From a virus: a stretch of DNA of 39,567 nt. The notes beneath the pieces are model-generated. The model made no database searches, was not told the DNA's origin, and saw only the letters and a list, made by a program, of their open reading frames with translations. The stretch lies in UHGV virus genome UHGV-0061228; one strand, given 5' to 3'. The translations under genes were made by a program, and so were the position numbers. Shown here piece after piece: positions 1-39,567 of the stretch. How positions within the stretch are numbered: position 1 is the stretch's first letter; each line of letters opens with the position of its first letter.

Positions 1-109
1 CGGTAACGCTTGGGTATACGGTGACGCTCGGGTATACGGTGACGCTCAGGTATTCGGTGACGCTCAGGTATACGGTGATGCTTGGGTATACGGTAACGCT
101 TGGGTTCAA
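1..109 (+). repeat. 18-nt tandem coding repeats (ggtgacgctcgggtatac variants); this is the same array as 39227..39567.
   Basis: Direct reading shows the 18-nt period, with variation confined to the D/N, W/R/Q and Y/F codons. Confidence 0.85.
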
Positions 110-13973: not shown

Positions 13974-15225
13974 GGAAGAAGAACAGAGGAAGAAGAATAT
14001 CAAGGACGAAGCTGAATACGCGAAAGAGATTGAGAAGATCTATGTGAATATGATGGATGAAATCCAGAAAGAGATCAATGGATTCTATACACGATATGCA
14101 AAATCAGAAGGGATCACAATCGCAGAGGCAAAAAAGCGGGTATCTAAAATGGATATTGATGCATACAGTCGAAAAGCAGCACAATATGTTAAGGATAAGA
14201 ATTTTTCGAAAGAGGCCAATGAGGAAATGAGACTTTACAATGCAGCTATGAAGATTAACCGATTGGAAATGCTAAAAGCAAATATCGGCATGCATCTTGT
14301 CGGCGGATTTGATGAGTTGCAAAAGTATTTTGAGCAGATTCTGACTGAGAAAACACTGGAAGAATTTGAACGGCAGGCAGGAATCCTTGGAAAATCCATC
14401 CAGAACAATGCGAAGATGGCACATTCGATCGTGAACGCTTCTTTCCACAATGCGAGATACTCAGACCGTATTTGGATGTATCAAGATATGCTGAAAGCTG
14501 AATTGTCGAAGCTATTACAGACTGGTTTGATACAGGGTAAGAATCCAAGAACACTGGCAAGACACCTTACCAAACTGTTTGGAGTAAGCCGGGAAAATGC
14601 AGAGCGACTGATGATAACGGAGCTGTCGAGAGTGCAGGCAGAAGCGCAGAAACAGTCTTATATCCGCAATGGATTTGATGAGTATGAGTTTATCGCGGAG
14701 CCGACAGCCTGCCCGATCTGCCGGGCTTTAGATGGAAAGCATTTTAAGGTATCAAAAATGATGCCAGGAGAAAATGCACATCCAATGCATCCACGTTGCC
14801 GGTGCAGTACAGCAGCATATATGGATGACAAAGAATATGATGAATGGCTGGACGGGTATTCTGAGCACGGGATGGATTTTGAAACTTGGAAGAACAGGGT
14901 TGAAAAGAAATCTGTGTTTGATATAATAAAAGCAGATAAAACAGTCAGCGGACATTCTGGAACGCCTAAAATGGCAGAGGCAGGAGCGGTAATAGACCAT
15001 ATCGGAAAAGACGGGAAAGTAGATGTAAGAGCTTTTTACGGAGAGTCGAAATTAAAATTTAAAGATATCCATACAACCGCACACGGGAATCCTAAGCAGC
15101 ATCCTTATGGAAATCATGGGGAACACGCGCATGACTATACATGGGGAGAAGACGGCAGACTGAAGGATAAGACAACTCGCGAATTAAGCGAAGAGGAAAG
15201 AAAGGAGAATGGGGATATATTATGA
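13945..15225 (+). CDS. minor head/head-morphogenesis protein (SPP1 gp7/Mu F-like) with a roughly 135-aa C-terminal extension
   Basis: MuF-domain hallmark '..ACPICRALDGK.....HPMHPRCRCS'. The extra His-rich C-terminal segment follows the domain. Confidence 0.8.
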   Translation: MSSRTYWKNREEEQRKKNIKDEAEYAKEIEKIYVNMMDEIQKEINGFYTRYAKSEGITIAEAKKRVSKMDIDAYSRKAAQYVKDKNFSKEANEEMRLYNAAMKINRLEMLKANIGMHLVGGFDELQKYFEQILTEKTLEEFERQAGILGKSIQNNAKMAHSIVNASFHNARYSDRIWMYQDMLKAELSKLLQTGLIQGKNPRTLARHLTKLFGVSRENAERLMITELSRVQAEAQKQSYIRNGFDEYEFIAEPTACPICRALDGKHFKVSKMMPGENAHPMHPRCRCSTAAYMDDKEYDEWLDGYSEHGMDFETWKNRVEKKSVFDIIKADKTVSGHSGTPKMAEAGAVIDHIGKDGKVDVRAFYGESKLKFKDIHTTAHGNPKQHPYGNHGEHAHDYTWGEDGRLKDKTTRELSEEERKENGDIL

Positions 15226-15461
15226 ATAAAGATGAATTAAGACAAATTTTATCTGAGTGTTGCAATGATATTTCTTTCTCTTACAGAGGATTGTCATCTG
15301 GAGTGACAGTTGAAGTTCATAATTATGTTCCGACATATCAAGTGTGGCATGGCGATGACGTGAAAGAGTATGATAATGTGGATAAAGTTATGAATGATAA
15401 ATTTTATAGTGGAAAGTCGTTAAACGATCTAGTAAAAGAAGTAGAAATTGAAGCAATGTAA
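15222..15461 (+). CDS. small hypothetical protein (79 aa), translationally coupled to the MuF-like gene
   Basis: ATGA overlap with the upstream stop. Followed by a terminator. Confidence 0.4.
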   Translation: MNKDELRQILSECCNDISFSYRGLSSGVTVEVHNYVPTYQVWHGDDVKEYDNVDKVMNDKFYSGKSLNDLVKEVEIEAM

Positions 15462-15494
15462 TACCATCGGTCGAGCGGGCTGATGGTATTTTTA
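15461..15494 (+). terminator. rho-independent terminator (ataccatc...gatggtat + T5)
   Basis: 8-bp stem and a U-run. Confidence 0.5.
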
Positions 15495-15518
15495 TGCGCA
15501 TTTTGGAGGTGATGTAAT

Positions 15519-23405: not shown

Positions 23406-24930
23406 TTTTGTAGACACGGGCGAGGTTGGGAGTGAAAACTCCCTGCCAAGTGAGGCCCTGCAGATTGATGGAGAATACATCGAAAATCTAATTGATGGGT
23501 ATAGAACTCTGTATGTGAGTGGACGTGAACTTTTGGAGTCTGAAATCACAGATAGGGAAATCGATAGAATTAGCGGGTCTGAATATCTGGAAAGCCGCAA
23601 CACTACAAGAAACATTACGGTTGGATATCAATTGCTTTGCAAGACCACAAGGGAATTTCGTGATAAGTTTAATAAGATTTCCAGTATTTTAAGTAAGGAG
23701 CAAGTTAAGCTGATTTTTGCAGATGAGCCGGATAAATATTTTATCGGGACAAAATCGAGTGTTGGTGATGTGGAACCGGGAAGAATGAATGTGAAAGGGG
23801 AATTTACTTTCTATTGCTGCGACCCGTGCAAGTATTCTTCCGCTGAAAAGCAGTTTCCCGGTGTACAGCAAGACGGATACCAGACCATTACCATCCAAAA
23901 CAACGGCACCGAATGGGCAGACGTGGACTATGAGATCACGCACCAACACGAAAACGGATTTATCGGACTTGTGAGCCAGTATGGAGTGATCCAGCTCGGA
24001 AAACAGGAAGAGGCGGACGGAGAGAACTACGAAGCGTCCGAAGAACTGTTTAACGGTTACGGCTTGTTTCAAGATGATCATGGCACCTCTTATCAGAATC
24101 CGGAAAACACAACGCAAGGAACGTTGGAAGTACGGAATGTTGCCGGATACAACGTGATGGCATTAAAAGGTGGACAAGTCACATCTGGATACTGGAACGG
24201 TGGAATGAAAACACTTACTATTCCGGTGGACACCGAGGGTAGAGGTGGTGCAAAGAACTTTTACTGCTACACGCAGCACTGGTTCGAAACCGGCTTGATG
24301 GGGCAGACAGGAGCGCAGACCATTGCATTCCTGACTGGAGATAACAAGGTGATATGTGCCATGTCTATTAACAAGAGTGATACGGTTGGTAATACGGCGC
24401 ATGTGGACTGGTTTGCCCCTCAAAACAAGAAAATTAAGACACTGGATTTCCAGCCGACATCCTACGAGGATAACCCGTTTAATTTAAAAATGGGCGGCGG
24501 ACACAATGACTTTTTAAAAGAGGGTGACAAGTTGCGTATTTTCTGGTACGGGAAGTATTACCACTTTACTATCCCGGAGATTAAAGACATGGTGTGTGAG
24601 AAGATACAGGTCTGGATCGGGCAGTGGGGAAGTAGAGATCTTGGAAATCAGCTGGTTACGCACAATTATTTAAAAAGTATCTGGTTCCGTAAGGATAACG
24701 TGGAAAAATACCGAGATGTGCCGAACCGGTATCGTGCCGGAGATGTGGTGTCTATAGATGGAGAGAGTACAAAGGTCTATGTAAACGGGATGCCGGCAAA
24801 AGGAGATGAGATTAATGGATCCAATTATCCAAAAGTGCCACCCGGAACAACAGAAGTGCAGTTCTGCTATTCTTCCTTTTCTTCTCCACCGCCACAGATT
24901 AAAGCGAAAATACGGGAGGTGTATTTATAG
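23398..24930 (+). CDS. distal tail protein (Dit), extended form
   Basis: Immediately after the tape measure. 510 aa. Confidence 0.55.
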   Translation: MYDFVDTGEVGSENSLPSEALQIDGEYIENLIDGYRTLYVSGRELLESEITDREIDRISGSEYLESRNTTRNITVGYQLLCKTTREFRDKFNKISSILSKEQVKLIFADEPDKYFIGTKSSVGDVEPGRMNVKGEFTFYCCDPCKYSSAEKQFPGVQQDGYQTITIQNNGTEWADVDYEITHQHENGFIGLVSQYGVIQLGKQEEADGENYEASEELFNGYGLFQDDHGTSYQNPENTTQGTLEVRNVAGYNVMALKGGQVTSGYWNGGMKTLTIPVDTEGRGGAKNFYCYTQHWFETGLMGQTGAQTIAFLTGDNKVICAMSINKSDTVGNTAHVDWFAPQNKKIKTLDFQPTSYEDNPFNLKMGGGHNDFLKEGDKLRIFWYGKYYHFTIPEIKDMVCEKIQVWIGQWGSRDLGNQLVTHNYLKSIWFRKDNVEKYRDVPNRYRAGDVVSIDGESTKVYVNGMPAKGDEINGSNYPKVPPGTTEVQFCYSSFSSPPPQIKAKIREVYL

Positions 24931-27900
24931 TGGATAACATCAGGATCGCGATTTTAAGCGCGAATAACACACCAGTAGCGTTTATGGACAATCAGCACAA
25001 GAAGTCCATGCACTACTGGGGAGATGAATTGCACGAATACTTACAGGGTGCGGCAAATACTTACACCTTTACGGTGTCCGCAAAGCATCAGGATGCAGAG
25101 AATGTTACCGCCGGGAATAAGGTGGCGTTTATACACAAAGGGAAATCCTACTATCTAAACATCGTAAACACTGAGCAGACAGAGGAGACGATCACAGCTA
25201 CGGCGTGGTCGTTATCTTTTGAGCTAATCAACGAGGATGCCGGAGAGTACAAAGCCGGAAAAGCAATGAGCTTTGAGGAGTACCTTGCCGTTTTTGATGC
25301 TGAGAGAACACTAAAACTGGGGCTCAATGAGGTATCAGACAAGAGGATTACCAACGAGTGGACAGGCACAACATCCATACTGAAAAGGCTGTTTTCTTTG
25401 GCAAACGTATTTTCTGCCGAAATCGAATTTGAAACGGTTTTAAATAAGGACTACTCCTTAAAAGAGATCGTCCTGAATGTCTACCGAGAACGCTCCGACA
25501 CCAACAGCGGAGTCGGAGAATACCGGAATGACATTGTACTGCGGTACGGGAAAGGAATTACCGGAATTCGAAAAACCACAGATGCCGAGAAGCTTTACAC
25601 CTGCATCCAGCCGACCGGAAAGGACGGTCTGACAATCAATGGTCTTGACAAGAAAGAATGCGATGAAAACGGCAATATCGAGTACTTTACAGACGGTGCG
25701 ATCATCCGCGCACCACAGGCAAGGGACCGGTTCCCATCCAACATCGTAAATAAGGCTGATGCTTATATCCTGATGCGTAAAGAGTACGATACAGACAGCA
25801 AGGACAAGCTCTATAGCATGGCTCTGTCTGATCTTAAAACAGCATCTGAACCGGTGGTGACTTACGAGGTGGACGGATATTTTGACACCAACATCGGGGA
25901 CACCGTGAGGATGCAGGATCAGGAGTGGACACCAGTGCTTTATCTACAGGCGAGAGTGTCCGAACAGGTGCGCAGTCTTACCAATCCAAAAACTGCAAAG
26001 ACGGTATTTACAAACTACAAAGAGCTTACATCCGAAATTTCGGATAGCTTGTTGCAGAGGATGGAAGATCTTATCAACAAAAATAAGGTCTACACTTGTT
26101 CCATCTCCACCAACAATGGCATCATCTTTAAAAATGGTATCGGCAGCACTACTCTGACAGCTTACGCTTACGATAACGGCGTGGACGTCACGGGCAATCT
26201 GGAAATCCGGTGGAGTAAAGATGGGACAGAGTTTTACGTTGGCAAGAGTGTTACGGTAAATGCTACTGACGTGGATACAAAGGCGGTGTACTCGTTTGAG
26301 GCTATGGAAAATGGGATAAAACGTGGGTATTACGAGGTTACGATTGCAGATTTAATGGATGGAGAGGACGGAAAAGACGGAGAACAGGGTCCGCAAGGTG
26401 AGAAAGGAGAGCAAGGCGAACAGGGACCTCCGGGTCCACAAGGCGCTCCGGGATTGGATGGTATACAGGGTCCAAAAGGGGATCAGGGAATCCCGGGAAA
26501 AGATGGGAAGGACGGAAAAACACAGTACACCCACATTGCTTATGCAAACAGCGCAGATGGGTCTAAAGATTTTTCTGTTTCTGACAGTAATCGGGAATAT
26601 ATCGGAATGTATGTCGATTTTATTCCGAACGACAGCACAGACCCGACAAAATACGCATGGAGTAAGATCAAAGGCACAGACGGGGCGATCGGAACACCCG
26701 GAAAGCCGGGAGCTGATGGAAAGACCCCGTATCTACATATCGCCTACGCAAACAGTGCAGATGGCAAGACGGGATTTTCCACCACGGATGGTACAAATAA
26801 GCTCTATATCGGGCAGTACACGGATTATACACAGGCAGATAGTACAGATGCTACGAAGTATACATGGACAAAAATAAAAGGCGAACAGGGGGAACGTGGT
26901 CCTCAGGGAGTCCCGGGTTTGCAGGGAATACAAGGTCCTAAAGGTGAACAGGGGATACAGGGACCTCAAGGAAATACAGGTGCTACTGGACCGCAGGGAC
27001 CAGCTGGACAGTCCACCTATTTTCATATCAAGTATTCCTCAGTTGCGAATCCTACATCAAGTAGCCAGATGACGGAAACGCCGTCTACATACATTGGCAC
27101 TTATGTAGACTCTGTTCAGGCGGATAGCACGGATCCAAAGAAATATACCTGGTCACGCTTCCAAGGACTCCAAGGGCCACAGGGAACGCAGGGCATACCT
27201 GGAACGAACGGCACAAACGGCAAGACAAGTTATCTGCACATTAAATATTCCAACGATGGAGGTAAAACGTTTACCGGAAACAGCGGAGAAGATGTGGGAA
27301 CGTATATCGGTACTTGTGTAGATTACAATCAGTCCGATCCTGCAAGTGTTAGATCTTATAAGTGGGCGAAGATTAAAGGGGAAAACGGACAGGATGGTCA
27401 GGATGGAGCAGACGGTCAGGACGGTGTTGGGATTAAATCTATTACAAAATACTACCTCGCATCCGAAAAAAGTACTGGAATCACGGCATCGACTTACGGA
27501 TGGACTACTACGATGCAGTCCATGACGGAAACGAATAAATACCTGTGGAGTTATGACAAGATATACTACACCAACGAAAAAACAGTAAACACAACACCTG
27601 TGATCATTGGAGTACACGGGCAAAACGGAAGTGACGGAACATCGGGCATCATCATATCTCAGACAGCACCGGAAAATCCAAAGGTAGGACAGCTCTGGCA
27701 GACCGCAAGCGGAGAGCCGATTAAAAGATGGGATGGAAGTAAATGGGTGATCTATTACATTTCCGTAGAGAATCTGAATGTAGAGACGCTAAGTGCGATT
27801 GCCGCAAACCTCGGAACTGTAACCGCTGGACTTATAAAGAGTCTGGACGGACACTTTTTTATCCAAGTAAATACCGGAGAGATCTACTCTGAAGATGAAA

Positions 27901-28451
27901 ACGGGATAAACAGCTCTGCAATAAGCAAGGGTGTATTTGTGGCGAATGGGATGAGCAGCGGCAGACACACAAGCTTATCTATATTCCCAACGCAGATTGC
28001 GCAGTATTTTGACGGAGCCACCATTTCAAACCTTGTTAATTTTAAACGGGACGGTATATTTGTTAAAAACTCCGGATCATACGAAATAAACATATCTAAA
28101 GCAACAAATTATGACTCCGGAAAAATAAAAGGACCATTCGCCAGCACAAACTCATCCAACTATATACAGGCGGAGCTAATAAGGAGAGGGTGCGTGGTTA
28201 CATGTAAAATCACAGCGCTTATACAGTTTCCGAACACGGGATCACACGGGCCATTTGAAGAATTAAGGATCCCTATAGGATATCGACCAGCCGTAGACAT
28301 AGTAGAGACGTACAGCGAATTGGTTGGTACGTCAGTTATCGGGACTGGCAGATATTACATCACAAAAGATGGAGGAGTATCCATTGTAACTGGCAAGACA
28401 GATTACTGTGAGCGTATAAAGACATTTACATGGATCACAGATGACGAGTAA
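24930..28451 (+). CDS. tail-associated/tip protein (Tal, anti-receptor-like) with collagen-like repeats
   Basis: 1173 aa. The N-terminal region follows the usual siphophage tail-tip pattern. Internal G-X-Y triple-helix runs are present. Confidence 0.7.
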   Translation: MDNIRIAILSANNTPVAFMDNQHKKSMHYWGDELHEYLQGAANTYTFTVSAKHQDAENVTAGNKVAFIHKGKSYYLNIVNTEQTEETITATAWSLSFELINEDAGEYKAGKAMSFEEYLAVFDAERTLKLGLNEVSDKRITNEWTGTTSILKRLFSLANVFSAEIEFETVLNKDYSLKEIVLNVYRERSDTNSGVGEYRNDIVLRYGKGITGIRKTTDAEKLYTCIQPTGKDGLTINGLDKKECDENGNIEYFTDGAIIRAPQARDRFPSNIVNKADAYILMRKEYDTDSKDKLYSMALSDLKTASEPVVTYEVDGYFDTNIGDTVRMQDQEWTPVLYLQARVSEQVRSLTNPKTAKTVFTNYKELTSEISDSLLQRMEDLINKNKVYTCSISTNNGIIFKNGIGSTTLTAYAYDNGVDVTGNLEIRWSKDGTEFYVGKSVTVNATDVDTKAVYSFEAMENGIKRGYYEVTIADLMDGEDGKDGEQGPQGEKGEQGEQGPPGPQGAPGLDGIQGPKGDQGIPGKDGKDGKTQYTHIAYANSADGSKDFSVSDSNREYIGMYVDFIPNDSTDPTKYAWSKIKGTDGAIGTPGKPGADGKTPYLHIAYANSADGKTGFSTTDGTNKLYIGQYTDYTQADSTDATKYTWTKIKGEQGERGPQGVPGLQGIQGPKGEQGIQGPQGNTGATGPQGPAGQSTYFHIKYSSVANPTSSSQMTETPSTYIGTYVDSVQADSTDPKKYTWSRFQGLQGPQGTQGIPGTNGTNGKTSYLHIKYSNDGGKTFTGNSGEDVGTYIGTCVDYNQSDPASVRSYKWAKIKGENGQDGQDGADGQDGVGIKSITKYYLASEKSTGITASTYGWTTTMQSMTETNKYLWSYDKIYYTNEKTVNTTPVIIGVHGQNGSDGTSGIIISQTAPENPKVGQLWQTASGEPIKRWDGSKWVIYYISVENLNVETLSAIAANLGTVTAGLIKSLDGHFFIQVNTGEIYSEDENGINSSAISKGVFVANGMSSGRHTSLSIFPTQIAQYFDGATISNLVNFKRDGIFVKNSGSYEINISKATNYDSGKIKGPFASTNSSNYIQAELIRRGCVVTCKITALIQFPNTGSHGPFEELRIPIGYRPAVDIVETYSELVGTSVIGTGRYYITKDGGVSIVTGKTDYCERIKTFTWITDDE
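26361..27425 (+). repeat. collagen-like (G-X-Y) segments alternating with four roughly 55-aa repeated modules ('YxHIxYxxx..G...F......YIGxYxDxxxxDSTDxxKYxWxKIKG')
   Basis: Direct reading of the translation. Confidence 0.75.
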
Positions 28452-28784: not shown

Positions 28785-30649
28785 CGGAAGCAGAAAAGTT
28801 ATTACAGGAGACAAAGAGTGCGGCAGTTGTGGCAGAGTCGCAAGCAGAAGATATCTGCGTGATTGACTCCGACCTAAGAATTATCGGCATACCGGAACAA
28901 TTTAAAGTCCTTGGTGTCGAGCACGATAAAGATGTAAAAGTGATACAGTTTCGGATTCCGAAAGTTTATAAAGGTACAGACTTATCTGCCTTTAATATCT
29001 CCGTAAACTACCAAAATGCCAGAGGGACGAAAGACCGGTATATTGTTACAGATAAAAAAGTGTCTGGTGACCAGATCGAATTTTCGTGGACAGTCGGAAA
29101 AACAGCGATTGAATACAGAGGGGACACCCGTTTTATTGTCTGTATGCGTCTCACGGGCTCTGATGGTATAATCCAAAAAGAGTTTAATACTACACTCGCC
29201 ACAATGACCGTACTGGAAGGGCTGGAAGTTGACAATCCAGTAATCGAACAGGAAGAAAAAGACATTATCGCACAACTGTTGCAGATCGTGGATGACAAAT
29301 CCAAAGAAGCAGTACAGGCAGTTACAGCAGAGGGAACAAAGCAGATCAAAGCGGTACAGGCTGAAGCGCAGGAGATCATTGCGGACAGAGAGCAGATTAA
29401 GACCAACAAGGCAGATATCGCAGATTTAAGACAGATGAAGGCGGGAGCGATTATCAACAGTGCTAAAGGGGAGCGTATCGCTGTCGGAGATTCGGCAGAC
29501 GCGTTTTTTGAGGGATTGAAGCTACATGGGAAGAGTGAGCAAAACGGGTCGCCCACACCAGATAATCCGATACCGATAAAAAGCTGTGGAGATGGTGGAG
29601 CTATTGGGATTAGAGTGCTGAGAAAAAATCTATGCAAAGTCACTTCGGTGTTAAATGCGAGCTTTGATGAAAACACAGGAACTCTAGTCAATAATGCTAA
29701 AAACAACACTGTCAAATCTTATGTAAAAATACAAAAATACAAAGGAGATAAGTTTTTGGAAGAAATTCCCGTGAGCAATACCGGAAAGACGGAGAAAATA
29801 TTTTCCATTAACGGTACTTTTAATAGAATCCGATTGGCTTTCGCTGGTGATATATCTGAAGGAAGTATTATTATAGATGTTTCTTATCTGAATTACGGTG
29901 AATACACACTCAGTATGGATATAGAAGAGATTGGAATGAATGAAGGAAGAATTTCGAAAATCATGTTGTTAAATGAAGGGGAGTCCGATGAGATTTTTGA
30001 ACCATTTCAACACCAACAAGCTTCACTCTCCACCCCAAACGGTTTACCCGGTATTAAAGTAGATTCTGGCGGTAATTACACAGATTCTAACGGTCAACAG
30101 TGGGTTTGTGATGAGATGGATTTCAAGCGTTGGAAGTACGTGCAGAGAATCAGAAAGGTAAATCTGGAGGATCGCTCTTTCCACAAGCAAGCTTCTGATA
30201 GCTCTCTGGATTATTATCTTTTTGCAATTACATGCGAAGATAAAGCTGTGAAAAACATATATAAAAGAGCTGTACTTTGCAATACGTTTATTGCAAAAAA
30301 TGGTCAAAACATGCAGAATATAGACGGAATTGAAGGGATATCTACAAATCCAGGTGTAGCGTACTCGAATTATATCTATGTAAGGATAAAACCAAGCAGA
30401 TTGTCAGGTGTAGGAGATGCCGCTGAATTTAAAAAATGGTTAATCGATAATAACGTCCAAATTATCGAGCAAATAAACCCGATCGAAACTGACATCCCAG
30501 AAGAAACAATGCAAGCATACCAAAAACTCTACACCAACTACCCATCTACAGTTATTCAGAATGACTCTGGAGCTGGTATGGAAGTGGAGTATGTAGCGGA
30601 TACGAAGCAATTTATCTTAGACCAGATAAAAGCTCTTGTACAGGCTTAA
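28781..30649 (+). CDS. BppU-like baseplate/receptor-binding protein
   Basis: N-terminal 'VIDSDLRIIGIPEQFKVLGVEHDKDVKVIQFRIPKVY' resembles the BppU N-domain. 622 aa, after Tal. Confidence 0.5.
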   Translation: MTEAEKLLQETKSAAVVAESQAEDICVIDSDLRIIGIPEQFKVLGVEHDKDVKVIQFRIPKVYKGTDLSAFNISVNYQNARGTKDRYIVTDKKVSGDQIEFSWTVGKTAIEYRGDTRFIVCMRLTGSDGIIQKEFNTTLATMTVLEGLEVDNPVIEQEEKDIIAQLLQIVDDKSKEAVQAVTAEGTKQIKAVQAEAQEIIADREQIKTNKADIADLRQMKAGAIINSAKGERIAVGDSADAFFEGLKLHGKSEQNGSPTPDNPIPIKSCGDGGAIGIRVLRKNLCKVTSVLNASFDENTGTLVNNAKNNTVKSYVKIQKYKGDKFLEEIPVSNTGKTEKIFSINGTFNRIRLAFAGDISEGSIIIDVSYLNYGEYTLSMDIEEIGMNEGRISKIMLLNEGESDEIFEPFQHQQASLSTPNGLPGIKVDSGGNYTDSNGQQWVCDEMDFKRWKYVQRIRKVNLEDRSFHKQASDSSLDYYLFAITCEDKAVKNIYKRAVLCNTFIAKNGQNMQNIDGIEGISTNPGVAYSNYIYVRIKPSRLSGVGDAAEFKKWLIDNNVQIIEQINPIETDIPEETMQAYQKLYTNYPSTVIQNDSGAGMEVEYVADTKQFILDQIKALVQA

Positions 30650-30679
30650 AGATTGGAGATGGAATATGGAGATTAGGGC

Positions 30680-30703
30680 AAGACCGTAATGGTCTTATTT
30701 TTA
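30680..30703 (+). terminator. rho-independent terminator (aagacc-gtaat-ggtctt + ATTTTTAT)
   Basis: 6-bp perfect stem and a U-run. Confidence 0.55.
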
Positions 30704-30728
30704 TACTTAAAAAAACCGGAGGAAAGAC

Positions 30729-31010
30729 ATGACAGAAAATGAAGTAGAAGTGAAACTTGCAGAGCACGGAAAAGAAATCGGCTCATTAAAACACCGAATG
30801 AAAGAAGCAGAGGACGTTGTGAATGTGGTACATCAACTGGCGCAAGAAATGGTAGGGTTGACCAAGGAGGTTGGATTTATGAACCAGACCCTTGTGCAGT
30901 TGACCGCAAAGGTGACGCATCTTGAGCAGACACCGGCTAAACGGTGGGACGTAGTAGTAACCGCACTGATCGGAGCTGTGATTGGTGGAATAGTAGCGAT
31001 GTATCTGTAA
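30729..31010 (+). CDS. XhlA-like lysis-associated membrane protein
   Basis: 93 aa, coiled-coil N-terminus plus C-terminal TM 'VVVTALIGAVIGGIVAMYL'. Position just before the holin. Confidence 0.45.
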   Translation: MTENEVEVKLAEHGKEIGSLKHRMKEAEDVVNVVHQLAQEMVGLTKEVGFMNQTLVQLTAKVTHLEQTPAKRWDVVVTALIGAVIGGIVAMYL

Positions 31011-31023
31011 AGGAGAATGAAAA

Positions 31024-31272
31024 ATGAAGAAGATTAACTGGATTGTAAGAATTAAAAACAAGGCATTCTGGGTTGCACTGATCCCGGCAATCTTACTGTT
31101 GATACAGGCAATTGCGGCAGTGTTTGGGCTTAACATCAACCTTGGAGACCTTGGTGATAAGCTATTAACCGTAATCAATGCGCTCTTTGCAGTGCTGGCG
31201 ATCCTCGGTGTAGTGGTAGACCCAACAACACCTGGAACAGGAGATTCGGAGAGGGCACTTACATATAAATAG
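31024..31272 (+). CDS. holin (phiLC3-family-like)
   Basis: 'MKKINWIVRIKNKAFWVALIPAILLLIQAI' N-terminal signature. Two TM segments. Confidence 0.75.
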   Translation: MKKINWIVRIKNKAFWVALIPAILLLIQAIAAVFGLNINLGDLGDKLLTVINALFAVLAILGVVVDPTTPGTGDSERALTYK

Positions 31273-31277
31273 ATTCA

Positions 31278-31305
31278 GGAGAGCTTGGAAACAGGCTCTC
31301 TTTTG
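31278..31305 (+). terminator. hairpin plus U-rich tract downstream of the holin (possible attenuator)
   Basis: ggagagc-N10-gctctct followed by TTTTGTTGTG. Confidence 0.4.
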
Positions 31306-31323
31306 TTGTGCGACATCGCACAG
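31306..31323 (+). promoter_or_regulatory. 18-nt motif 'TTGTGCGACATCGCACAG' (imperfect palindrome TGTGCGA-CA-TCGCACA), copy 1, just upstream of the DUF2829 gene RBS
   Basis: Exact duplicate of 31851-31868. Confidence 0.4.
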
Positions 31324-31334
31324 GAAGGAGAAGA

Positions 31335-31850
31335 ATGATTATGAAATTTGAACAGGCATTAAAAGCAATGAAGAACGGAGAAAAAGTAAAACTGCCATCT
31401 TGGGGTGGCTATTGGTATTGGGATTCGGACAAGGAAACGGTAATGATTCAATGTAGACCACAGGACAGTGATAATGGAGAATTACTTGATATCAGAGAAA
31501 CACAGAGGGTTGAGTACACTCTTCTCAATGTGGCATCTGACGAATGGGAGATTGCAGACGAAAAGAATTGCCCGGTACTTGGTGGAATTGCAACATTTTC
31601 ATTTGGTGAAGCAATCAAATATATGAAACGTGGAATGAAAGTGAAACGTAAAGGCTGGAACGGAAAGAGTCAGTACATTCAGCTTGCTACCGGAATCTCA
31701 TATAAGGCTGCATCTGGGGAGGTTGTGAATTGTGAACATGAAGCCATTGGTAATATGGCAGTAGCTTTTGTCGGTACATCTGGTGTACAAATGGGATGGC
31801 TCGCATCACAAGCTGATATGCTGGCAGATGATTGGGTATTTGTAGATTAA
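31335..31850 (+). CDS. tandem DUF2829-like (Tad2-like) domain protein
   Basis: Two repeats of 'F[EG].A[LI]K.MK.G.KVK...W.G.......' each end in 'A.D.W...D'. The second repeat, 'FGEAIKYMKRGMKVKRKGWNGKSQYIQL...DMLADDWVFVD', matches the DUF2829 pattern. Confidence 0.5.
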   Translation: MIMKFEQALKAMKNGEKVKLPSWGGYWYWDSDKETVMIQCRPQDSDNGELLDIRETQRVEYTLLNVASDEWEIADEKNCPVLGGIATFSFGEAIKYMKRGMKVKRKGWNGKSQYIQLATGISYKAASGEVVNCEHEAIGNMAVAFVGTSGVQMGWLASQADMLADDWVFVD

Positions 31851-31868
31851 TTGTGCGACATCGCACAG
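31851..31868 (+). promoter_or_regulatory. 18-nt motif 'TTGTGCGACATCGCACAG', copy 2, just upstream of the endolysin RBS
   Basis: Exact duplicate of 31306-31323. Confidence 0.4.
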
Positions 31869-31880
31869 AGAGGAGAAAAT

Positions 31881-32855
31881 ATGAGTATTTGTCGTGGAGT
31901 AGCAGGAAACAGAGGAAGAAATCCGGTAGGAATCTTTTTTCACAATGACGCTGGAAGCAAGAACGCCAATGCAGAATTTTACAGAAATTGGTTACAGACA
32001 CATCCGCTTGAAAATGGATTTGCGCACTATTATGTAGCACAGGATGGCATCTTACAGGCAGAGGATGACTGGAATTGCGCTTGGCACTGCGGAGACGCAA
32101 ACGGGAACTTAAATTATCTTGGCATCGAAACGTGTCAGAGTATGGGTGATCTGGATGTATTTAAAGCAAATGAGGAAAAAGCATTGCAGCTGGCAGCACA
32201 GAAGTGCAAGCAATATGGAATCACACCAAGTACAAGCACGATAAGGCTACATCAGGAAGTGTATGCTACATCTTGCCCTCACAGATCTGTGGAGATTCAC
32301 GGTGGCAGGGAAGCTACAAAATCCTACTTTATTAAACGGATTAAGGAGTACATGGGTGGTAATGTCACGCCGCCAACTTATGTATCTGGAGGACAGGCGC
32401 AGGCTCAAGCTGCACAGAGACAGCCGGAAGTAGTATTTACTTACGCCGTCAAACTGGAAGACGGTACAATCTTACCATTTGTCCGCAATCTCACAGACTT
32501 TGCCGGGATACAGGGTAAGCGCATCACGGATGTAGCTATTAAGGTAGACAAGGGATCCGTAAAATACAGAGTTCATGTGATCGGAAGAGGGTGGCTACCT
32601 TATGTGACAGGATGCAACTGGAAAGATCACAATAATGGTTATGCCGGTACAGGACAGCCAATTGACGCAATCGAGGTGTACTACAATACTCCAGCAGATT
32701 ATGCGGCAAAATACGGCTACCAGAAAGCGCAGTACCGTGTCAGCCCGGTAAATGGAGCTTACTGGTCATGGCAGCATGATAATGAGACCGGAAACGGACA
32801 GGACGGATATGCTGGAGCGTTCGGACAGGCAATCGATAGATTCCAGTTGTTCTAA
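31881..32855 (+). CDS. endolysin, N-acetylmuramoyl-L-alanine amidase (Amidase_2/PGRP-type) with a C-terminal binding domain
   Basis: 'FAHYYVAQDGILQ...AWHCGDANGNLNYLGIETCQ' amidase_2 signature. RBS 'agaggag' precedes the ATG at 31881. Confidence 0.8.
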   Translation: MSICRGVAGNRGRNPVGIFFHNDAGSKNANAEFYRNWLQTHPLENGFAHYYVAQDGILQAEDDWNCAWHCGDANGNLNYLGIETCQSMGDLDVFKANEEKALQLAAQKCKQYGITPSTSTIRLHQEVYATSCPHRSVEIHGGREATKSYFIKRIKEYMGGNVTPPTYVSGGQAQAQAAQRQPEVVFTYAVKLEDGTILPFVRNLTDFAGIQGKRITDVAIKVDKGSVKYRVHVIGRGWLPYVTGCNWKDHNNGYAGTGQPIDAIEVYYNTPADYAAKYGYQKAQYRVSPVNGAYWSWQHDNETGNGQDGYAGAFGQAIDRFQLF

Positions 32856-32861
32856 TAAAAT

Positions 32862-32887
32862 CCCCTCGGAGATCGTTCTCTGAGGGG
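32862..32887. terminator. bidirectional hairpin (11-bp stem)
   Basis: cccctcggaga-tcgt-tctctgagggg. On the - strand it is followed by TTTTATT and would terminate the integrase transcript. Confidence 0.5.
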
Positions 32888-33009
32888 TGAATATTGTACC
32901 ATTTTTACTTCTTTATAATAGGTAGAAAAATAATTGTACGCTCTTGAGAAAAGGTTGACCTTTTTGCAACAACCGACAAAAGTCCAACAAACCCAGCAAA
33001 ATCAAGGGT

Positions 33010-34485
33010 TTACGGCATGTGGTAGTAGTATACTTTAAGTTCGTCTTCTTCTCGATCATAGACAATTTTCTCCACAACGCTTCTAAGCACCTCATTCTTT
33101 GTCGTCGCATCTACGGAATCGGATGAGAGAATATCGTACACATTTTTTACTCTCATCAACATATCATTGTCCTCATTTTTGGTGCTTATTTTCTCTTCTT
33201 TAAGCTCAGACAGTTGTTTTTCTAGACTGTCTTTCTCTCCCTGCACAATCCGTTTATTTTCCTTGTACTCTTCCATAGTATCAATTCCATTCATGTACGC
33301 TTCTTTGATTCTCTGCAATTTCACATCGATTTTCTTGATCTGATCTTCCAGTATGGTTTTCAAATCCGCAGTATCTTCCGTTTTAACCTCAATCTTCCGG
33401 TAGGTTATTTTTCCGGTATCCAATACAGACTTAATGGATTCCAATACCGCAGGTTCCAGCTTTAGAGAGCTTATGGAGTTCTTCGCTGCACATTTTCCCT
33501 TGGAGTATCCGTAACAGCGAAAATAGCAGTATGTCTGCTTATTGTTTTCAATCTTGCAGGCAGTCATCGTTCTTCCGCACGCTGGGCATTTAACGATCCC
33601 AGATAGCCAGTGTTTGTACGTACTCACCGGTCTTGCTCCACGTGGACGGTATTCTCTCTTGTATCGCTCCTGTGCCTTATCAAACAATTCCTTACTAATG
33701 ATTGCAGGTTGTTCTCCCTCAGCGATAATCCACTCGCTTTCTGGCCGGATCTCTTTCGATTCATTAATCGTCCGATTCCACCGCACCATCCCGCAGTAAG
33801 TGGGGTTCTGTAGGATATATTCGATAGACCTTCGTTCAAATTCTTTCCCATGTGATGTTTTAAAGTTATGGCTATTCAAGAGCCGTGCGATCTCAAACAG
33901 TCCCATGCCGTCATGCACATACTTTTCAAAAATCAGCTTCACGATTTCAGCCTCTTCCGGTACGATCACTGGCGGTTCTTTATGTGATACAATCTTGTAC
34001 CCAAGTGGTGGGCGTGCTTGGTATCCACCTCGTTCCGCTTTTTCTCTCATTCCTCTTGTTACTTCTCCGGATAGACGGACAGAGTAATATTCATCCATCC
34101 ACTCAATAATTCGTTCGATCAGAGAGCCGAATGGACCATCTACCAGTGGTTCAGAGATGCTTATTACGTCCACGTTATGTTTCTTTTTAAGCAGAGACTT
34201 ATATACAATGCTTTCCTCTTGGTTTCGTGCAAATCGGCTGAATTTCCATACCAGTATGGCATCTGCAGGATGATCTGATGCTTTTGCGAGCCCGACCATC
34301 TTTTGAAACTCCGGTCGCTTATCTGCTTTCCTTCCAGAAATCCCGACCTCGTAAAAAATCTTAGACACCACATACCCGTGACTCTTTGCGTAATCTTTTA
34401 ACAACTTCGCTTGGGAATCTGGGGATAATTCGTCTTGCTTTCCAGTGGATACACGGACGTATCCAAAAGCATATTTCGTTTCCAT
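33010..34485 (-). CDS. int: large serine recombinase (phage integrase)
   Basis: N-terminal resolvase catalytic motif 'GYVRVSTGKQ'. Recombinase domain, Zn-ribbon 'CPACGRTM..C..C' and a C-terminal coiled-coil are present. 491 aa. Confidence 0.9.
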   Translation of the reverse strand: METKYAFGYVRVSTGKQDELSPDSQAKLLKDYAKSHGYVVSKIFYEVGISGRKADKRPEFQKMVGLAKASDHPADAILVWKFSRFARNQEESIVYKSLLKKKHNVDVISISEPLVDGPFGSLIERIIEWMDEYYSVRLSGEVTRGMREKAERGGYQARPPLGYKIVSHKEPPVIVPEEAEIVKLIFEKYVHDGMGLFEIARLLNSHNFKTSHGKEFERRSIEYILQNPTYCGMVRWNRTINESKEIRPESEWIIAEGEQPAIISKELFDKAQERYKREYRPRGARPVSTYKHWLSGIVKCPACGRTMTACKIENNKQTYCYFRCYGYSKGKCAAKNSISSLKLEPAVLESIKSVLDTGKITYRKIEVKTEDTADLKTILEDQIKKIDVKLQRIKEAYMNGIDTMEEYKENKRIVQGEKDSLEKQLSELKEEKISTKNEDNDMLMRVKNVYDILSSDSVDATTKNEVLRSVVEKIVYDREEDELKVYYYHMP

Positions 34486-34572
34486 GTTATCATCTCCTTA
34501 TTTAATTTTATGCAAAAACGAGTACAAAAATAACAGCCAGCACATGAACGAATGTTCTGGATTGCAAGCTGT

Positions 34573-39082: not shown

Positions 39083-39567
39083 ATGAAAAAATTTGAATTA
39101 ACCAGCGAATTTGTAACTTTTTTAGGAAAGACGCTCTTTAGAATCAAGGCTCTTGTGTCGTTTGGTGATGTAGCAGAGGGAGAATTGGGCGGATTTATAG
39201 AAAGGGAGAATAATCTTGACCAGTCCGGTGACGCTTGGGTATACGGTGACGCTCGGGTATTCGGTAACGCTCGGGTATACGGTGACGCTCAGGTATCCGG
39301 TAACGCTCGGGTATTCGGTAACGCTCAGGTATTCGGTGATGCTTGGGTATACGGTAACGCTTGGGTATACGGTAACGCTTGGGTATACGGTGATGCTTGG
39401 GTATTCGGTAACGCTTGGGTATACGGTGACGCTCGGGTATACGGTGACGCTCAGGTATACGGTGATGCTTGGGTATACGGTAACGCTCGGGTATACGGTG
39501 ACGCTCAGGTATACGGTAACGCTTGGGTATACGGTGACGCTCGGGTATACGGTGACGCTCAGGTATT
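39083..39567 (+). CDS. 5' portion of the hexapeptide-repeat protein gene (N-terminus plus at least 19 'YG[DN]A[WRQ]V[YF]' repeats); continues at 2..334
   Basis: RBS 'aaaggagag' before the ATG at 39083. The translation 'MKKFELTSEF...DQSGDAWVYGDARVFGNARVYGDAQVSGNARVF...' is open to the window end. Confidence 0.6.
   Translation, partial: MKKFELTSEFVTFLGKTLFRIKALVSFGDVAEGELGGFIERENNLDQSGDAWVYGDARVFGNARVYGDAQVSGNARVFGNAQVFGDAWVYGNAWVYGNAWVYGDAWVFGNAWVYGDARVYGDAQVYGDAWVYGNARVYGDAQVYGNAWVYGDARVYGDAQV
39227..39567 (+). repeat. 18-nt tandem coding repeats (same array as 1..109)
   Basis: Direct reading. Positions 39514-39567 equal 1-54. Confidence 0.85.

What the first reader, a model, noticed from the sequence alone, without database searches (positions are those of the whole stretch)
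31295..31880. Tandem DUF2829 (Tad2-like) gene inserted between holin and endolysin, bracketed by a duplicated 18-nt palindromic motif
ORF 31335-31850 contains two copies of a domain with the 'FGEA(I/L)K.MK.G.KV.R.GW.G...' start and a 'A.DDW..V' end. That pattern is characteristic of DUF2829, the family that includes the Thoeris anti-defence sponge Tad2. The identical 18-mer TTGTGCGACATCGCACAG (TGTGCGA/TCGCACA inverted repeat) precedes the RBS of both this gene (31306-31323) and the endolysin (31851-31868). This suggests the gene was inserted by duplicating the endolysin leader, so an anti-defence-like gene is co-regulated with lysis. Alternatively the motif is a shared operator or RNA hairpin controlling both.
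Basis: partly seen in the sequence, partly recalled or inferred. Interest (0 to 1): 0.7.

Follow-up and report, generated by a model that had tools for sequence, protein, structure and literature searches.

The report
Tandem Tad2-like gene cassette in lysis module
A gut-phage gene made of two Tad2-like (anti-Thoeris sponge) domains lies between holin and endolysin as a swappable cassette, bounded by a conserved palindrome that precedes many unrelated genes in Lachnospiraceae phages.

Summary
The 18-mer TTGTGCGACATCGCACAG occurs exactly twice in the window (31306 and 31851; 0.02 expected by chance). It brackets a gene that matches Pfam Tad2-like (PF11195) in both halves. AlphaFold models of the whole protein and of the N half match only Tad2 structures in the PDB. 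The C domain keeps the main gcADPR contact residues (W108, N109, W155, S158, D161). The N domain is a short, divergent copy.

The window is a Ruminococcus gnavus siphophage, about 99% identical to phiRg507T2_3 over the lysis region. Relatives show every state of this slot:
- empty (holin, terminator, one palindrome, same endolysin);
- filled with this gene;
- filled with a DUF6275 gene, also between two palindromes.

The palindrome is not endolysin-specific. In at least 118 viral contigs it lies 12-18 nt upstream of the start codons of at least 9 unrelated gene families, usually just after a terminator hairpin. Homology between genomes breaks at the palindrome.

Homologues of the gene recur in late operons, either between holin and lysin or at the head-module junction, often next to DUF6275 and DUF4406.

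Best reading: a late-expressed, pseudo-dimeric Tad2-family signal sponge, acquired by recombination at a recurrent leader element. Sponge activity and the palindrome's molecular role are untested.

The parts
30729..31010 (+). XhlA-like 'hemolysin'/holin-associated gene, first gene of the lysis module
   Evidence: phrog_937 'hemolysin', 8.4e-9. Annotated gp17 in phiRg507T2_3.
31024..31272 (+). Holin (82 aa)
   Evidence: Pfam Phage_holin_1, 2.5e-26; phrog_10091 and phrog_297 holin.
31277..31305 (+). Intrinsic-terminator-like hairpin (GAAA loop) followed by a T run, immediately upstream of palindrome copy 1
   Evidence: The terminator scan gives 11 pairs and a 4-nt loop, then TTTTG. The RNA fold of terminator plus palindrome is -27.8 kcal/mol, z -5.0. 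The hairpin is conserved in relatives, with three different hairpin sequences found in this position.
31306..31323 (+). Palindrome copy 1 (TTGTGCGACATCGCACAG; core 31307-31322). Homology to sibling phages that lack the gene ends just after it.
   Evidence: Similarity to phiRg507T2_2, phiRgIBDN1, phiRg519T2, RG-TP1 and phiRM10 stops at about window 31330.
31325..31330 (+). RBS (AAGGAG) of the Tad2-like gene
   Evidence: Read from the sequence. It lies 10 nt upstream of ATG 31341.
31341..31850 (+). Tandem Tad2-like gene (169 aa from ATG 31341; an alternative in-frame ATG at 31335 gives 171 aa)
   Evidence: PF11195, 7e-26, 2 stretches. phrog_1048, 4e-60, over the full length. 100% identical to phiRg507T2_3 gp19 'hypothetical protein'. 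AlphaFold2 pLDDT 89.2, pTM 0.74. Foldseek hits only Tad2 structures.
31341..31559 (+). N domain: a short, divergent Tad2-like domain (residues 3-75 of the 171-aa numbering). It keeps W23 (the equivalent of SPO1 Tad2 W25) but has SWGG instead of GWNG and lacks the WxxSQxD motif.
   Evidence: Pfam 25.3 bits, partial match. hhalign against the C-domain profile gives 96% probability over the first 23 residues only. The AlphaFold2 model of the N domain alone has pLDDT 90, and its top 4 PDB matches are all Tad2 (TM 0.61-0.67, 17% identity). It is the most conserved part of the tandem family.
31590..31847 (+). C domain: a canonical Tad2-like domain (residues 86-171)
   Evidence: Pfam 72.5 bits over profile positions 2-73 of 73. 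SPO1 Tad2 8sme, 2.9e-11. The gcADPR-contact equivalents W108, N109, W155, S158 and D161 are present and are invariant in 119-120 of 120 close clusters.
31851..31868 (+). Palindrome copy 2, starting directly after the TAA stop codon of the Tad2-like gene
   Evidence: The same stop-codon/palindrome junction (GATTAATTGTGCGAC) is present in all near-identical cassettes.
31870..31875 (+). RBS (GAGGAG) of the endolysin
   Evidence: Read from the sequence.
31881..32855 (+). Endolysin (324 aa, N-acetylmuramoyl-L-alanine amidase)
   Evidence: Pfam Amidase_2, 4.4e-17; phrog_670 and phrog_833 endolysin.

Best explanation
The gene encodes a two-domain member of the Tad2 (DUF2829) family. Its canonical C-terminal Tad2 domain is fused behind a short, divergent N-terminal Tad2-like domain. 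Known Tad2 proteins are homotetramers with ligand pockets at protomer interfaces. I therefore infer that two copies of this tandem protein assemble into a pseudo-tetramer that sequesters a TIR-derived ADP-ribose signal (gcADPR-type). If so, it would blunt Thoeris-like signalling immunity.

The gene is a dispensable accessory cassette of 545 bp (palindrome, RBS, ORF). It entered the gap between holin and endolysin by homologous recombination at a conserved 16-18 bp palindrome. In Lachnospiraceae phages that palindrome normally lies between an intrinsic-terminator hairpin and the RBS of many different genes.

In this position the gene is most likely transcribed late, by read-through or antitermination of the holin terminator, together with the endolysin.

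Shown: fold, family, residue conservation, cassette polymorphism, recombination junctions at the palindrome, and recurrent placement in late operons. Inferred: oligomer, ligand, anti-defence effect, expression timing, and the primary molecular role of the palindrome. I favour a 5'-UTR hairpin next to the RBS that also serves as recombination microhomology.
For: Family and fold:
- PF11195 matches both halves.
- Sequence matches in the PDB are to SPO1 Tad2, HgmTad2/AcrIIA7, ModTad2 and SptTad2, at 3e-11 to 6e-9.
- AlphaFold2 models have pLDDT 89-90. Foldseek returns only Tad2 structures, for the whole protein (24 hits at E<=1e-3; the next hit is at E 0.48) and for the N domain alone.

Ligand site:
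- The SPO1 Tad2 contacts are W25, N26, W73 and D79, plus S76 and T65 (bioRxiv 10.1101/2023.05.01.538930). The HgmTad2 contacts are W21/N22 and S90/T92/D93 (10.1101/2023.11.15.567273).
- These align with W108, N109, W155, D161, S158 and T148 of the C domain. They are invariant in 119-120 of 120 close homologue clusters.

Cassette:
- Five sibling R. gnavus phages have holin, terminator and a single palindrome, with no Tad2-like gene.
- In an unbiased set anchored on the holin, 62 of 78 loci carry the palindrome 38-41 nt after the holin stop. Six have it directly before the same endolysin. Four carry the Tad2-like gene and seven carry a DUF6275 gene, in each case between two palindromes.
- The 99-100% identical gene occurs behind 3 different terminator hairpins and in front of 2 different endolysin modules.
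- An 83%-identical homologue lies between an unrelated holin (Phage_r1t_holin) and other endolysins, again with a palindrome on both sides. The junction to the alternative endolysins lies right after the palindrome.

Late-operon placement:
- Three holin/endolysin types are involved: Phage_holin_1, r1t and Holin_5_2, with Amidase_2, Amidase_3 and Peptidase_M15_4.
- The gene also occurs at the MuF/minor-capsid to Prp junction.

Palindrome as a start-associated element:
- There are 126 instances in 118 viral loci. In 95 an RBS and start codon lie 12-18 nt downstream, across at least 9 gene families. In 93 a T run lies within 8 nt upstream.
Against: - No binding or defence assay exists for any tandem Tad2-like protein that I could find.
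- A canonical Tad2 pocket needs the same residues from two protomers. The N domain lacks the equivalents of N26, W73, S76 and D79. The assembly may therefore have only one canonical pocket, or two half-degenerate ones.
- T78 is replaced by Ala.
- Across the wider tandem family the N domain is better conserved than the C domain. Only 15 of 45 diverse representatives keep all five contact residues. The family's core function may therefore lie in the N domain and involve another ligand.
- Anti-defence genes are usually early genes, whereas this one lies in a late module behind a terminator.
- I found no evidence here that the host carries Thoeris.
- For the palindrome: about 9 of 78 relatives have lost or collapsed it yet keep terminator, RBS and lysis genes. 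No clean compensatory base-pair changes were found.
Confidence: 0.6

Rival explanations
1. The palindrome is a DNA operator for a dimeric helix-turn-helix protein, encoded either by the host or by mobile elements. That protein would block or regulate transcription into the downstream gene, for example keeping lysis, integrase and accessory genes silent in the lysogen. Cassette shuffling would be a by-product of the shared site.
For: - It is a dyad-symmetric 16-18 bp site with 7-bp half-sites. Variation is concentrated at the centre (CA, CG, TA, TG), as is usual for operators.
- It occurs in either orientation before an RBS (L029, L054, L123).
- It lies next to promoter-like elements in some contexts. 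It is directly upstream of a perfect TTGACA-N17-TATAAT (L239 7053). It is followed by ATATAAT before serine recombinases (17 loci). It is 4 nt after TATAAT in L210.
- It also occurs inside a coding region and next to tRNAs.
- It is present in non-phage mobile elements of Lachnospiraceae, before relaxase-like and integrase genes.
Against: - Its position relative to promoter-like hexamers is inconsistent. Its spacing to the start codon, by contrast, is tight: 12-18 nt in 95 of 126 instances.
- One variant deletes a single central base, which changes the half-site spacing but keeps a hairpin (L398). Other variants are changes that still allow G:U pairing (five loci with CGCATG; the double C>T in L126/L358). 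These fit RNA pairing better than protein recognition.
- No candidate binding protein was identified.
Confidence: 0.3
2. The tandem protein is not an anti-Thoeris sponge. It is a Tad2-fold protein whose function lies in the conserved N domain. That function could be binding a different small molecule or nucleotide signal, or serving a late-stage or lysis-related role.
For: - The N domain is the best conserved part of the family, with invariant W23, G25 and W71 and near-invariant Y26, W27, I53, R54, T62 and N65. The C-domain contact residues drift in distant members.
- Stand-alone proteins of the N type exist (RG-TP1 DUF2829 gene, C. perfringens phage CP51). One occupies the same palindrome slot in L118.
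- The family sits persistently in late operons, next to DUF6275 and DUF4406 genes of unknown function.
- Ligand specificity is known to vary within the Tad2 family: gcADPR, His-ADPR and cyclic dinucleotides.
Against: - In the clade that contains the window protein, the C-domain gcADPR contacts are under strong constraint, conserved in 119-120 of 120 clusters.
- A dedicated lysis role is unlikely. The gene is absent from most relatives that have the same holin and endolysin, is frameshifted in one relative (L395/L128), and lies in head modules elsewhere.
Confidence: 0.3
3. The two palindromes arose by a local tandem duplication of the endolysin leader when the gene was inserted.
For: The 18-mer copies are identical. 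The repeat extends to 27 nt at 25/27 identity, and the unit is exactly 545 nt.
Against: - The element precedes many unrelated genes in at least 118 viral contigs and in several Lachnospiraceae genomes.
- It is already present as a single copy at empty sites.
- A different cargo gene (DUF6275) is bracketed in the same way.
- The same cassette is joined to different flanks.
Confidence: 0.05

Closest known systems
Tad2 (Thoeris anti-defence 2; SPO1 gp34.65, HgmTad2/AcrIIA7, ModTad2; Pfam PF11195 / DUF2829)
   Same: - Same fold for both domains.
- The C domain aligns end to end with SPO1 Tad2 (about 32% identity, E 3e-11).
- The C domain keeps the GWNG and W-x-x-S-Q-x-D-x-L-A-x-D-W motifs that contact gcADPR.
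- It is phage-encoded, small and non-enzymatic.
   Different: - Characterised Tad2 proteins are single-domain chains of about 90-105 aa, or 158 aa with an insertion, and they form homotetramers. Here two non-identical domains are fused in one chain of 169 aa.
- The N copy lacks most of the ligand contacts.
- The gene lies in the late lysis or head modules.
- No biochemical data exist for this architecture. PHROGs lists it as phrog_1048, 'unknown function'.
PeSL cassettes of T4-type phages (promoter-early stem-loops that mediate modular shuffling; Arbiol et al. 2010, PMC2839356; PMC4122927)
   Same: Both are short conserved regulatory motifs that include a stem-loop or terminator. Both flank non-essential ORFs, and homology between related genomes breaks at them. 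Both allow insertion, deletion and replacement of small genes by recombination between copies (compared).
   Different: - Here the conserved unit is a 16-18 bp palindrome lying between a variable terminator hairpin and the RBS. No conserved promoter is part of it.
- The hosts are Firmicutes temperate siphophages.
- Mini-circle formation was not tested.
Start-associated sequences (SAS/ESAS) of Cluster K mycobacteriophages (Pope et al. 2011, PMC3203893)
   Same: Both are short repeats found immediately upstream of the start codons of a subset of unrelated genes. Both are conserved across related phages and are rare in the host. In both cases the function is unknown but a link to translation initiation is suspected. 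ESAS elements contain inverted repeats.
   Different: - The SAS is a 13-bp non-palindromic sequence that overlaps the RBS. ESAS are 17-bp imperfect inverted repeats with a variable spacer.
- Here the element is a single compact perfect or near-perfect palindrome upstream of the RBS. It usually follows a terminator, and it is demonstrably a cassette boundary.
Phage morons / accessory genes in the gap between holin and endolysin
   Same: A dispensable gene with its own RBS, inserted between two genes of a late operon and variably present among close relatives.
   Different: Classical morons carry their own promoter and a downstream terminator. Here the terminator is upstream and no convincing promoter is present.

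Membership tests
Tad2 / DUF2829 (PF11195) | Match to the family profile above the curated threshold | tested here: met
   The whole protein scores 91 bits against a cut-off of 25. The C half scores 72.5 bits over the full profile. The N half scores 25.3 bits, marginal and partial.
Tad2 / DUF2829 (PF11195) | Tad2 fold (N-terminal helix, antiparallel sheet, C-terminal helix carrying the L-A-x-D-W motif) | tested here: met
   For the AlphaFold2 model (pLDDT 89.2), the only significant PDB matches are Tad2 structures (TM relative to target 0.74-0.81). For the N-domain model (pLDDT 90), the top four matches are all Tad2 (TM 0.61-0.67).
Tad2 / DUF2829 (PF11195) | Conserved gcADPR-contact residues (SPO1 W25, N26, W73, D79; also S76, T78, T65, I63) | tested here: inconclusive
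   The C domain has W108, N109, W155, D161, S158, T148 and V146, but T78 is replaced by A160. The N domain keeps only the W25 equivalent (W23); the N26 equivalent is Gly and there is no W-x-x-S-Q-x-D motif. One half meets the criterion and the other does not.
Tad2 / DUF2829 (PF11195) | Homotetramer of two V-shaped dimers with two interfacial ligand pockets | not testable with these tools
   Only monomer prediction was available and no coordinates were returned. The single-chain model has pTM 0.74. A dimer of tandem chains is an inference.
Tad2 / DUF2829 (PF11195) | Binds and sequesters 1''-3' gcADPR (or His-ADPR or cyclic dinucleotides) and inhibits Thoeris or CBASS | not testable with these tools
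   This needs biochemistry and phage assays. No published test of a tandem member was found.
PeSL-like modular-shuffling cassettes | A conserved short motif at both ends of variable ORFs, with homology breakpoints at the motif | tested here: met
   Searches show empty, Tad2-like and DUF6275 states, and different flanks joined at the palindrome.
PeSL-like modular-shuffling cassettes | The motif contains a functional promoter plus a terminator stem-loop | tested here: not met
   A terminator-like hairpin precedes the palindrome. No sigma-70-like promoter is associated with it in the window. Promoter-like hexamers occur only in some other contexts.
Start-associated sequences (SAS-like) | A repeat at a fixed short distance upstream of the start codons of unrelated genes | tested here: met
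   In 95 of 126 instances an RBS and start codon lie 12-18 nt downstream, and at least 9 downstream gene families are involved.

The most novel reading that the evidence does not exclude
The terminator-palindrome-RBS unit is the cis element of a so far undescribed gene-cassette exchange system in Lachnospiraceae phages and other mobile elements. It would mark hot-spots in late operons, in the gap between holin and lysin and at the head junction, where counter-defence genes are swapped. On this reading its cargo set (tandem Tad2-like, DUF6275, DUF4406, single N-type domains) is an anti-defence island. The tandem protein would be a hetero-pocket sponge, with C-C' pockets that bind gcADPR and conserved N-domain pockets that bind a second, different immune signal.
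Probability: 0.25. Interest if true: 0.75.

Novelty: new variant of a known kind. Interest (0 to 1): 0.5.

Why it matters
If the protein is a working sponge, it would show that the Tad2 tetramer can be rebuilt from a fused pair of non-identical domains. That opens the way to asymmetric or dual-specificity pockets. It would also show that gut Lachnospiraceae phages deploy such sponges from late operons.

Independently of that, the palindrome gives a simple sequence handle for finding variable accessory genes in a very abundant group of human-gut phages. It already points to DUF6275 and DUF4406 as untested candidates that travel with the Tad2-like gene. The element is widespread and I found no paper that contains it. 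Its role, whether RNA hairpin, operator or recombination site, can be tested directly in the cultivable R. gnavus / phiRg507T2_3 system.

Tried and rejected
- Rfam scan of 30600-33100 at E<=1: only two sub-threshold sRNA matches, none at the palindrome.
- Full-text search for the palindrome sequence: no paper.
- Covariation test of the hairpin on variants from about 200 loci. There were a few variants that still allow G:U pairing, one loop deletion, centre inversions and several disruptive single changes, but no compensatory pairs. The result is inconclusive, and the first locus set was biased by the exact-match search.
- Promoter scan around the cassette: no sigma-70-like site near either palindrome.
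- Search for evidence of Thoeris in R. gnavus or Lachnospiraceae in the literature: nothing usable.
- Genome-wide scan of 185,579 species. Hits outside Clostridia/Lachnospiraceae are single copies in unrelated, mostly GC-rich genomes. I treat these as chance for a 16-mer in 596 Gb (inference). Lachnospiraceae hits lie next to phage or mobile-element genes.
- Rejected: a role as a lysis regulator or endolysin partner, because of variable presence, a pseudogene copy and head-module locations.
- Rejected: anti-CRISPR (AcrIIA7) function. The HgmTad2 study could not reproduce Acr activity.
Full report
**1. Observation**

The window sequence contains TTGTGCGACATCGCACAG at 31306-31323 and 31851-31868. 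With up to three mismatches allowed these are the only two sites in 39.5 kb. Shuffles give 0.02 on average and never two. The repeat extends through the RBS, 27 nt at 25/27 identity, and the copies are 545 nt apart.

The core is a 7+7 inverted repeat around a CA centre. As RNA it folds into a 6-7 bp hairpin with a 4-nt loop. Together with an upstream hairpin the fold is -27.8 kcal/mol, z = -5. That upstream hairpin (31277-31302; 11 pairs, GAAA loop, then TTTTG) scores as an intrinsic terminator.

The bracketed ORF ends at TAA 31848-31850, and the second palindrome begins at the very next base. The first in-frame ATG is at 31335. The biological start is probably ATG 31341 (169 aa), for four reasons:
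- It is 10 nt from the AAGGAG.
- It matches GenBank gp19.
- Homologues begin MKF/MNF.
- One relative has ACG instead of the first ATG.

**2. What the gene is**

Pfam places both halves in PF11195 (Tad2-like). The C half matches strongly and completely. The N half is marginal and partial. PHROGs has a family covering the whole two-domain protein (phrog_1048, 4e-60, 'unknown function'), so the architecture is already an established phage family.

Sequence search of the PDB finds only Tad2 proteins (SPO1 Tad2, HgmTad2/AcrIIA7, ModTad2, SptTad2), all matching the C half. An AlphaFold2 model built on 20 diverse tandem homologues is confident (pLDDT 89.2, pTM 0.74). Its only significant structural neighbours are Tad2 structures: 24 hits at E<=1e-3, with the next hit at E 0.48.

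The N domain modelled alone (pLDDT 90) also has Tad2 structures as its four best PDB matches (TM 0.61-0.67 at 17% identity). A profile-profile comparison of the N and C domains aligns only the first 23 residues, at 96% probability.

**3. Ligand-site residues**

Published structures show gcADPR held by W25, N26, W73 and D79 from two SPO1 Tad2 protomers, with help from T78, I63, T65 and S76. The Tad2 tetramer has two such interfacial pockets (bioRxiv 10.1101/2023.05.01.538930). HgmTad2 uses W21/N22 and S90/T92/D93 (10.1101/2023.11.15.567273).

In the alignment these correspond to W108, N109, W155, D161, S158, T148 and V146 of the C domain. Only T78 is replaced (A160). These residues are invariant in 119-120 of 120 homologue clusters at 80% identity or more. 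All five main residues are kept in 15 of 45 diverse tandem representatives.

The N domain keeps only the first tryptophan (W23), within SWGG. It has its own invariant or near-invariant set: G25, Y26, W27, I53, R54, T62, N65 and W71. Overall it is better conserved than the C domain.

**4. Where the window comes from, and the empty site**

The lysis region is 98.6% identical to Ruminococcus (Mediterraneibacter) gnavus phage phiRg507T2_3, where the gene is gp19, 'hypothetical protein'. Five sibling phages share the XhlA-like gene and the holin up to about window 31330, then diverge. They have the same terminator hairpin and one palindrome. After it come an RBS, a 28-31-aa acidic ORF and a different 267-aa endolysin. 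They have no Tad2-like gene.

I collected 80 viral loci by holin similarity, which is unbiased with respect to the palindrome. Of these 78 are informative:
- 62 have the palindrome 38-41 nt after the holin stop.
- 9 have it collapsed or altered (for example TTATGCAAGGAGG, TTGCGCAAGG, or a one-base loop deletion) while keeping terminator, RBS and lysis genes.
- 3 have a shortened version.
- 4 are a more distant lineage without it.

Among the 78, six have the single palindrome directly before the window's endolysin type, which is the true empty site. Four carry the Tad2-like gene between two palindromes, and one of those copies is frameshifted. Seven carry an 88-aa DUF6275 gene (PF19791, 1e-33) between two palindromes 300 nt apart.

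**5. The cassette moves**

The 99-100% identical Tad2-like gene, always with a palindrome on each side, is found behind three different terminator hairpins. It is found in front of either of two endolysin modules.

An 83%-identical homologue lies in unrelated prophages between a Phage_r1t_holin and Amidase_2/PG_binding_1 or Amidase_3/ChW endolysins. It is again flanked by the palindrome (centre CG) and by terminator hairpins. The sequences leading into the two different endolysins diverge immediately after the palindrome.

The palindrome is therefore a recombination junction, not a local duplication scar.

**6. The palindrome is a general, start-associated element**

Of 126 instances, 95 have an RBS and start codon 12-18 nt downstream, and 18 have them 23-24 nt downstream. 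In 93 a T run lies within 8 nt upstream, usually the tail of a terminator hairpin.

The downstream genes fall into at least 9 unrelated families:
- four endolysin types;
- the acidic small ORF;
- DUF6275;
- the tandem Tad2-like gene;
- a stand-alone N-type domain;
- two families of unknown function;
- serine recombinases.

A few copies are inverted, inside a coding region, or beside tRNAs.

In bacterial genomes the element is found in Dorea, Bariatricus, Sporofaciens, Mordavella, C. symbiosum and other Lachnospiraceae. One MAG has at least 5 copies in about 14 kb. These copies lie before relaxase-like and other genes, and one lies directly upstream of a perfect TTGACA-N17-TATAAT.

No Rfam family and no paper contains the element.

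Its molecular role is unresolved. The tight spacing to start codons, the variants that still allow G:U pairing and the one-base loop deletion favour an RNA hairpin. The dyad symmetry with central variation, the orientation independence and the occasional proximity to promoters favour a protein operator. Its loss in about 12% of relatives shows it is not essential for lysis.

**7. Where relatives of the gene lie**

The family is large: 6,644 hits at E<=1e-3 in the 90%-clustered collection, and 3,398 representatives at 50% clustering. Using marker proteins, I classified 80 viral loci that carry a homologue at 71-100% identity:
- 14 are in lysis cassettes.
- 34 are at the head-module junction, between MuF or minor capsid and Prp/scaffold/capsid.
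- 32 were not classifiable with my marker set.

Pfam-annotated contigs confirm both placements. In many loci the gene is adjacent to DUF6275, to DUF4406 (PF14359), or to both. Examples are Holin_5_2 | DUF4406 - Tad2-like - DUF6275 | Peptidase_M15_4 endolysin, and MuF | DUF6275 - Tad2-like - DUF4406 | Prp.

The gene thus belongs to a small accessory island that settles at junctions within late operons. The window itself has neither DUF6275 nor DUF4406.

**8. Mechanism and confidence**

Shown:
- Tad2 fold in both domains;
- conserved C-domain ligand residues;
- a dispensable cassette;
- recombination junctions at the palindrome;
- recurrent late-operon placement.

Inferred:
- Two chains form a pseudo-tetramer.
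- That assembly sequesters a TIR-derived ADPR signal.
- Expression is late, by read-through of the holin terminator.

Depending on which Tad2 interface the N-C pair mimics, there are two possible outcomes. The assembly could have one canonical C-C' pocket plus one N-N' pocket of new specificity. Alternatively it could have two hybrid pockets. I could not resolve this without coordinates or a multimer prediction.

My probability estimates are about 0.9 that this is a Tad2-family cassette acquired at the palindrome, and about 0.5-0.55 that it is a functional sponge for a Thoeris-type signal.

**9. Comparison with known systems, and novelty**

The protein is a member of PF11195 by profile and fold, but it is a fused, asymmetric variant that has not been characterised.

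The cassette behaviour resembles the PeSL-mediated modular shuffling of T4-type phages (PMC2839356). The start-codon association resembles the SAS/ESAS repeats of Cluster K mycobacteriophages (PMC3203893). It matches neither fully: there is no conserved promoter, and the element is a compact palindrome upstream of the RBS.

Overall this is a new variant of known kinds. It is of moderate interest because the element is widespread, apparently undescribed, and points to further candidate counter-defence genes.

Noticed in passing
window 1-105 and 39226-39566: The same 18-nt tandem repeat (unit CGGTGACGCTCGGGTATA; 5.8 and 18.9 copies) lies at both ends of the window. On the + strand it encodes hexapeptide repeats (YGDAWV/YGNARV/YGDAQV). 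The window therefore looks like a complete, circularly permuted phage contig cut inside a hexapeptide-repeat gene.
   Followed up: partly
relatives: L015, L018, L043, L048, L064, L094, L099, L108, L343, L347, L396, L410 and others: An 88-aa DUF6275 gene (PF19791; phrog_918, unknown function) occupies the same holin-endolysin slot, bracketed by two palindromes 300-301 nt apart. It is a second cargo of the same cassette site.
   Followed up: partly
L131, L133, L135, L137 (lysis cassette); L163-L174 (head junction): DUF6275, the tandem Tad2-like gene and DUF4406 (PF14359) travel together as a three-gene accessory island in different late-operon junctions. The two unknown genes are candidate counter-defence genes by association.
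   Followed up: partly
window 30680-30706 (+), 15455-15510 (+) and 34505-34560 (-): A second recurrent leader follows terminator hairpins just before RBSs. It reads TTATTTTTATAC(CC)ATTTT, or in one case TATTTTTATGCGCATTTT. In the window it precedes the xhlA-like gene, Prp and the serine recombinase. In relatives the palindrome lies between this leader and ATATAAT before the recombinase, whereas the window has a collapsed TTTTGCATAAAAT there.
   Followed up: partly
sibling phages L002-L005 about 3609-3700, and many viral loci: A 28-31-aa highly acidic ORF (MSEQNEFGR...EEQEEEKE) lies between the palindrome and the alternative 245-268-aa endolysins. Its stop codon overlaps the endolysin start (ATGA), which suggests translational coupling. 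It has no family match.
   Followed up: no
L395 (same contig as L128): The Tad2-like gene in this otherwise 99% identical cassette is interrupted by a frameshift, read as 40-aa and 50-aa fragments. This suggests the gene is dispensable.
   Followed up: no
window 15222-15461: A 79-aa ORF of unknown function fills the MuF/Prp head-junction slot, where relatives carry the Tad2-like island. It is followed by a terminator hairpin and the second leader.
   Followed up: no
window 26413-26963, within ORF 24930-28451: Collagen-like G-X-Y repeat DNA lies in the 1173-aa tail-fibre ORF, as an imperfect 86-nt direct repeat 465 nt apart.
   Followed up: no
L224 and L239 (Lachnospiraceae bacterium SIG339, SVFT01000002.1): At least five perfect copies of TGTGCGACGTCGCACA occur within about 14 kb of what looks like a conjugative or mobilisable element. 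Each follows a terminator hairpin and precedes an RBS. One lies directly upstream of a consensus TTGACA-N17-TATAAT promoter.
   Followed up: no
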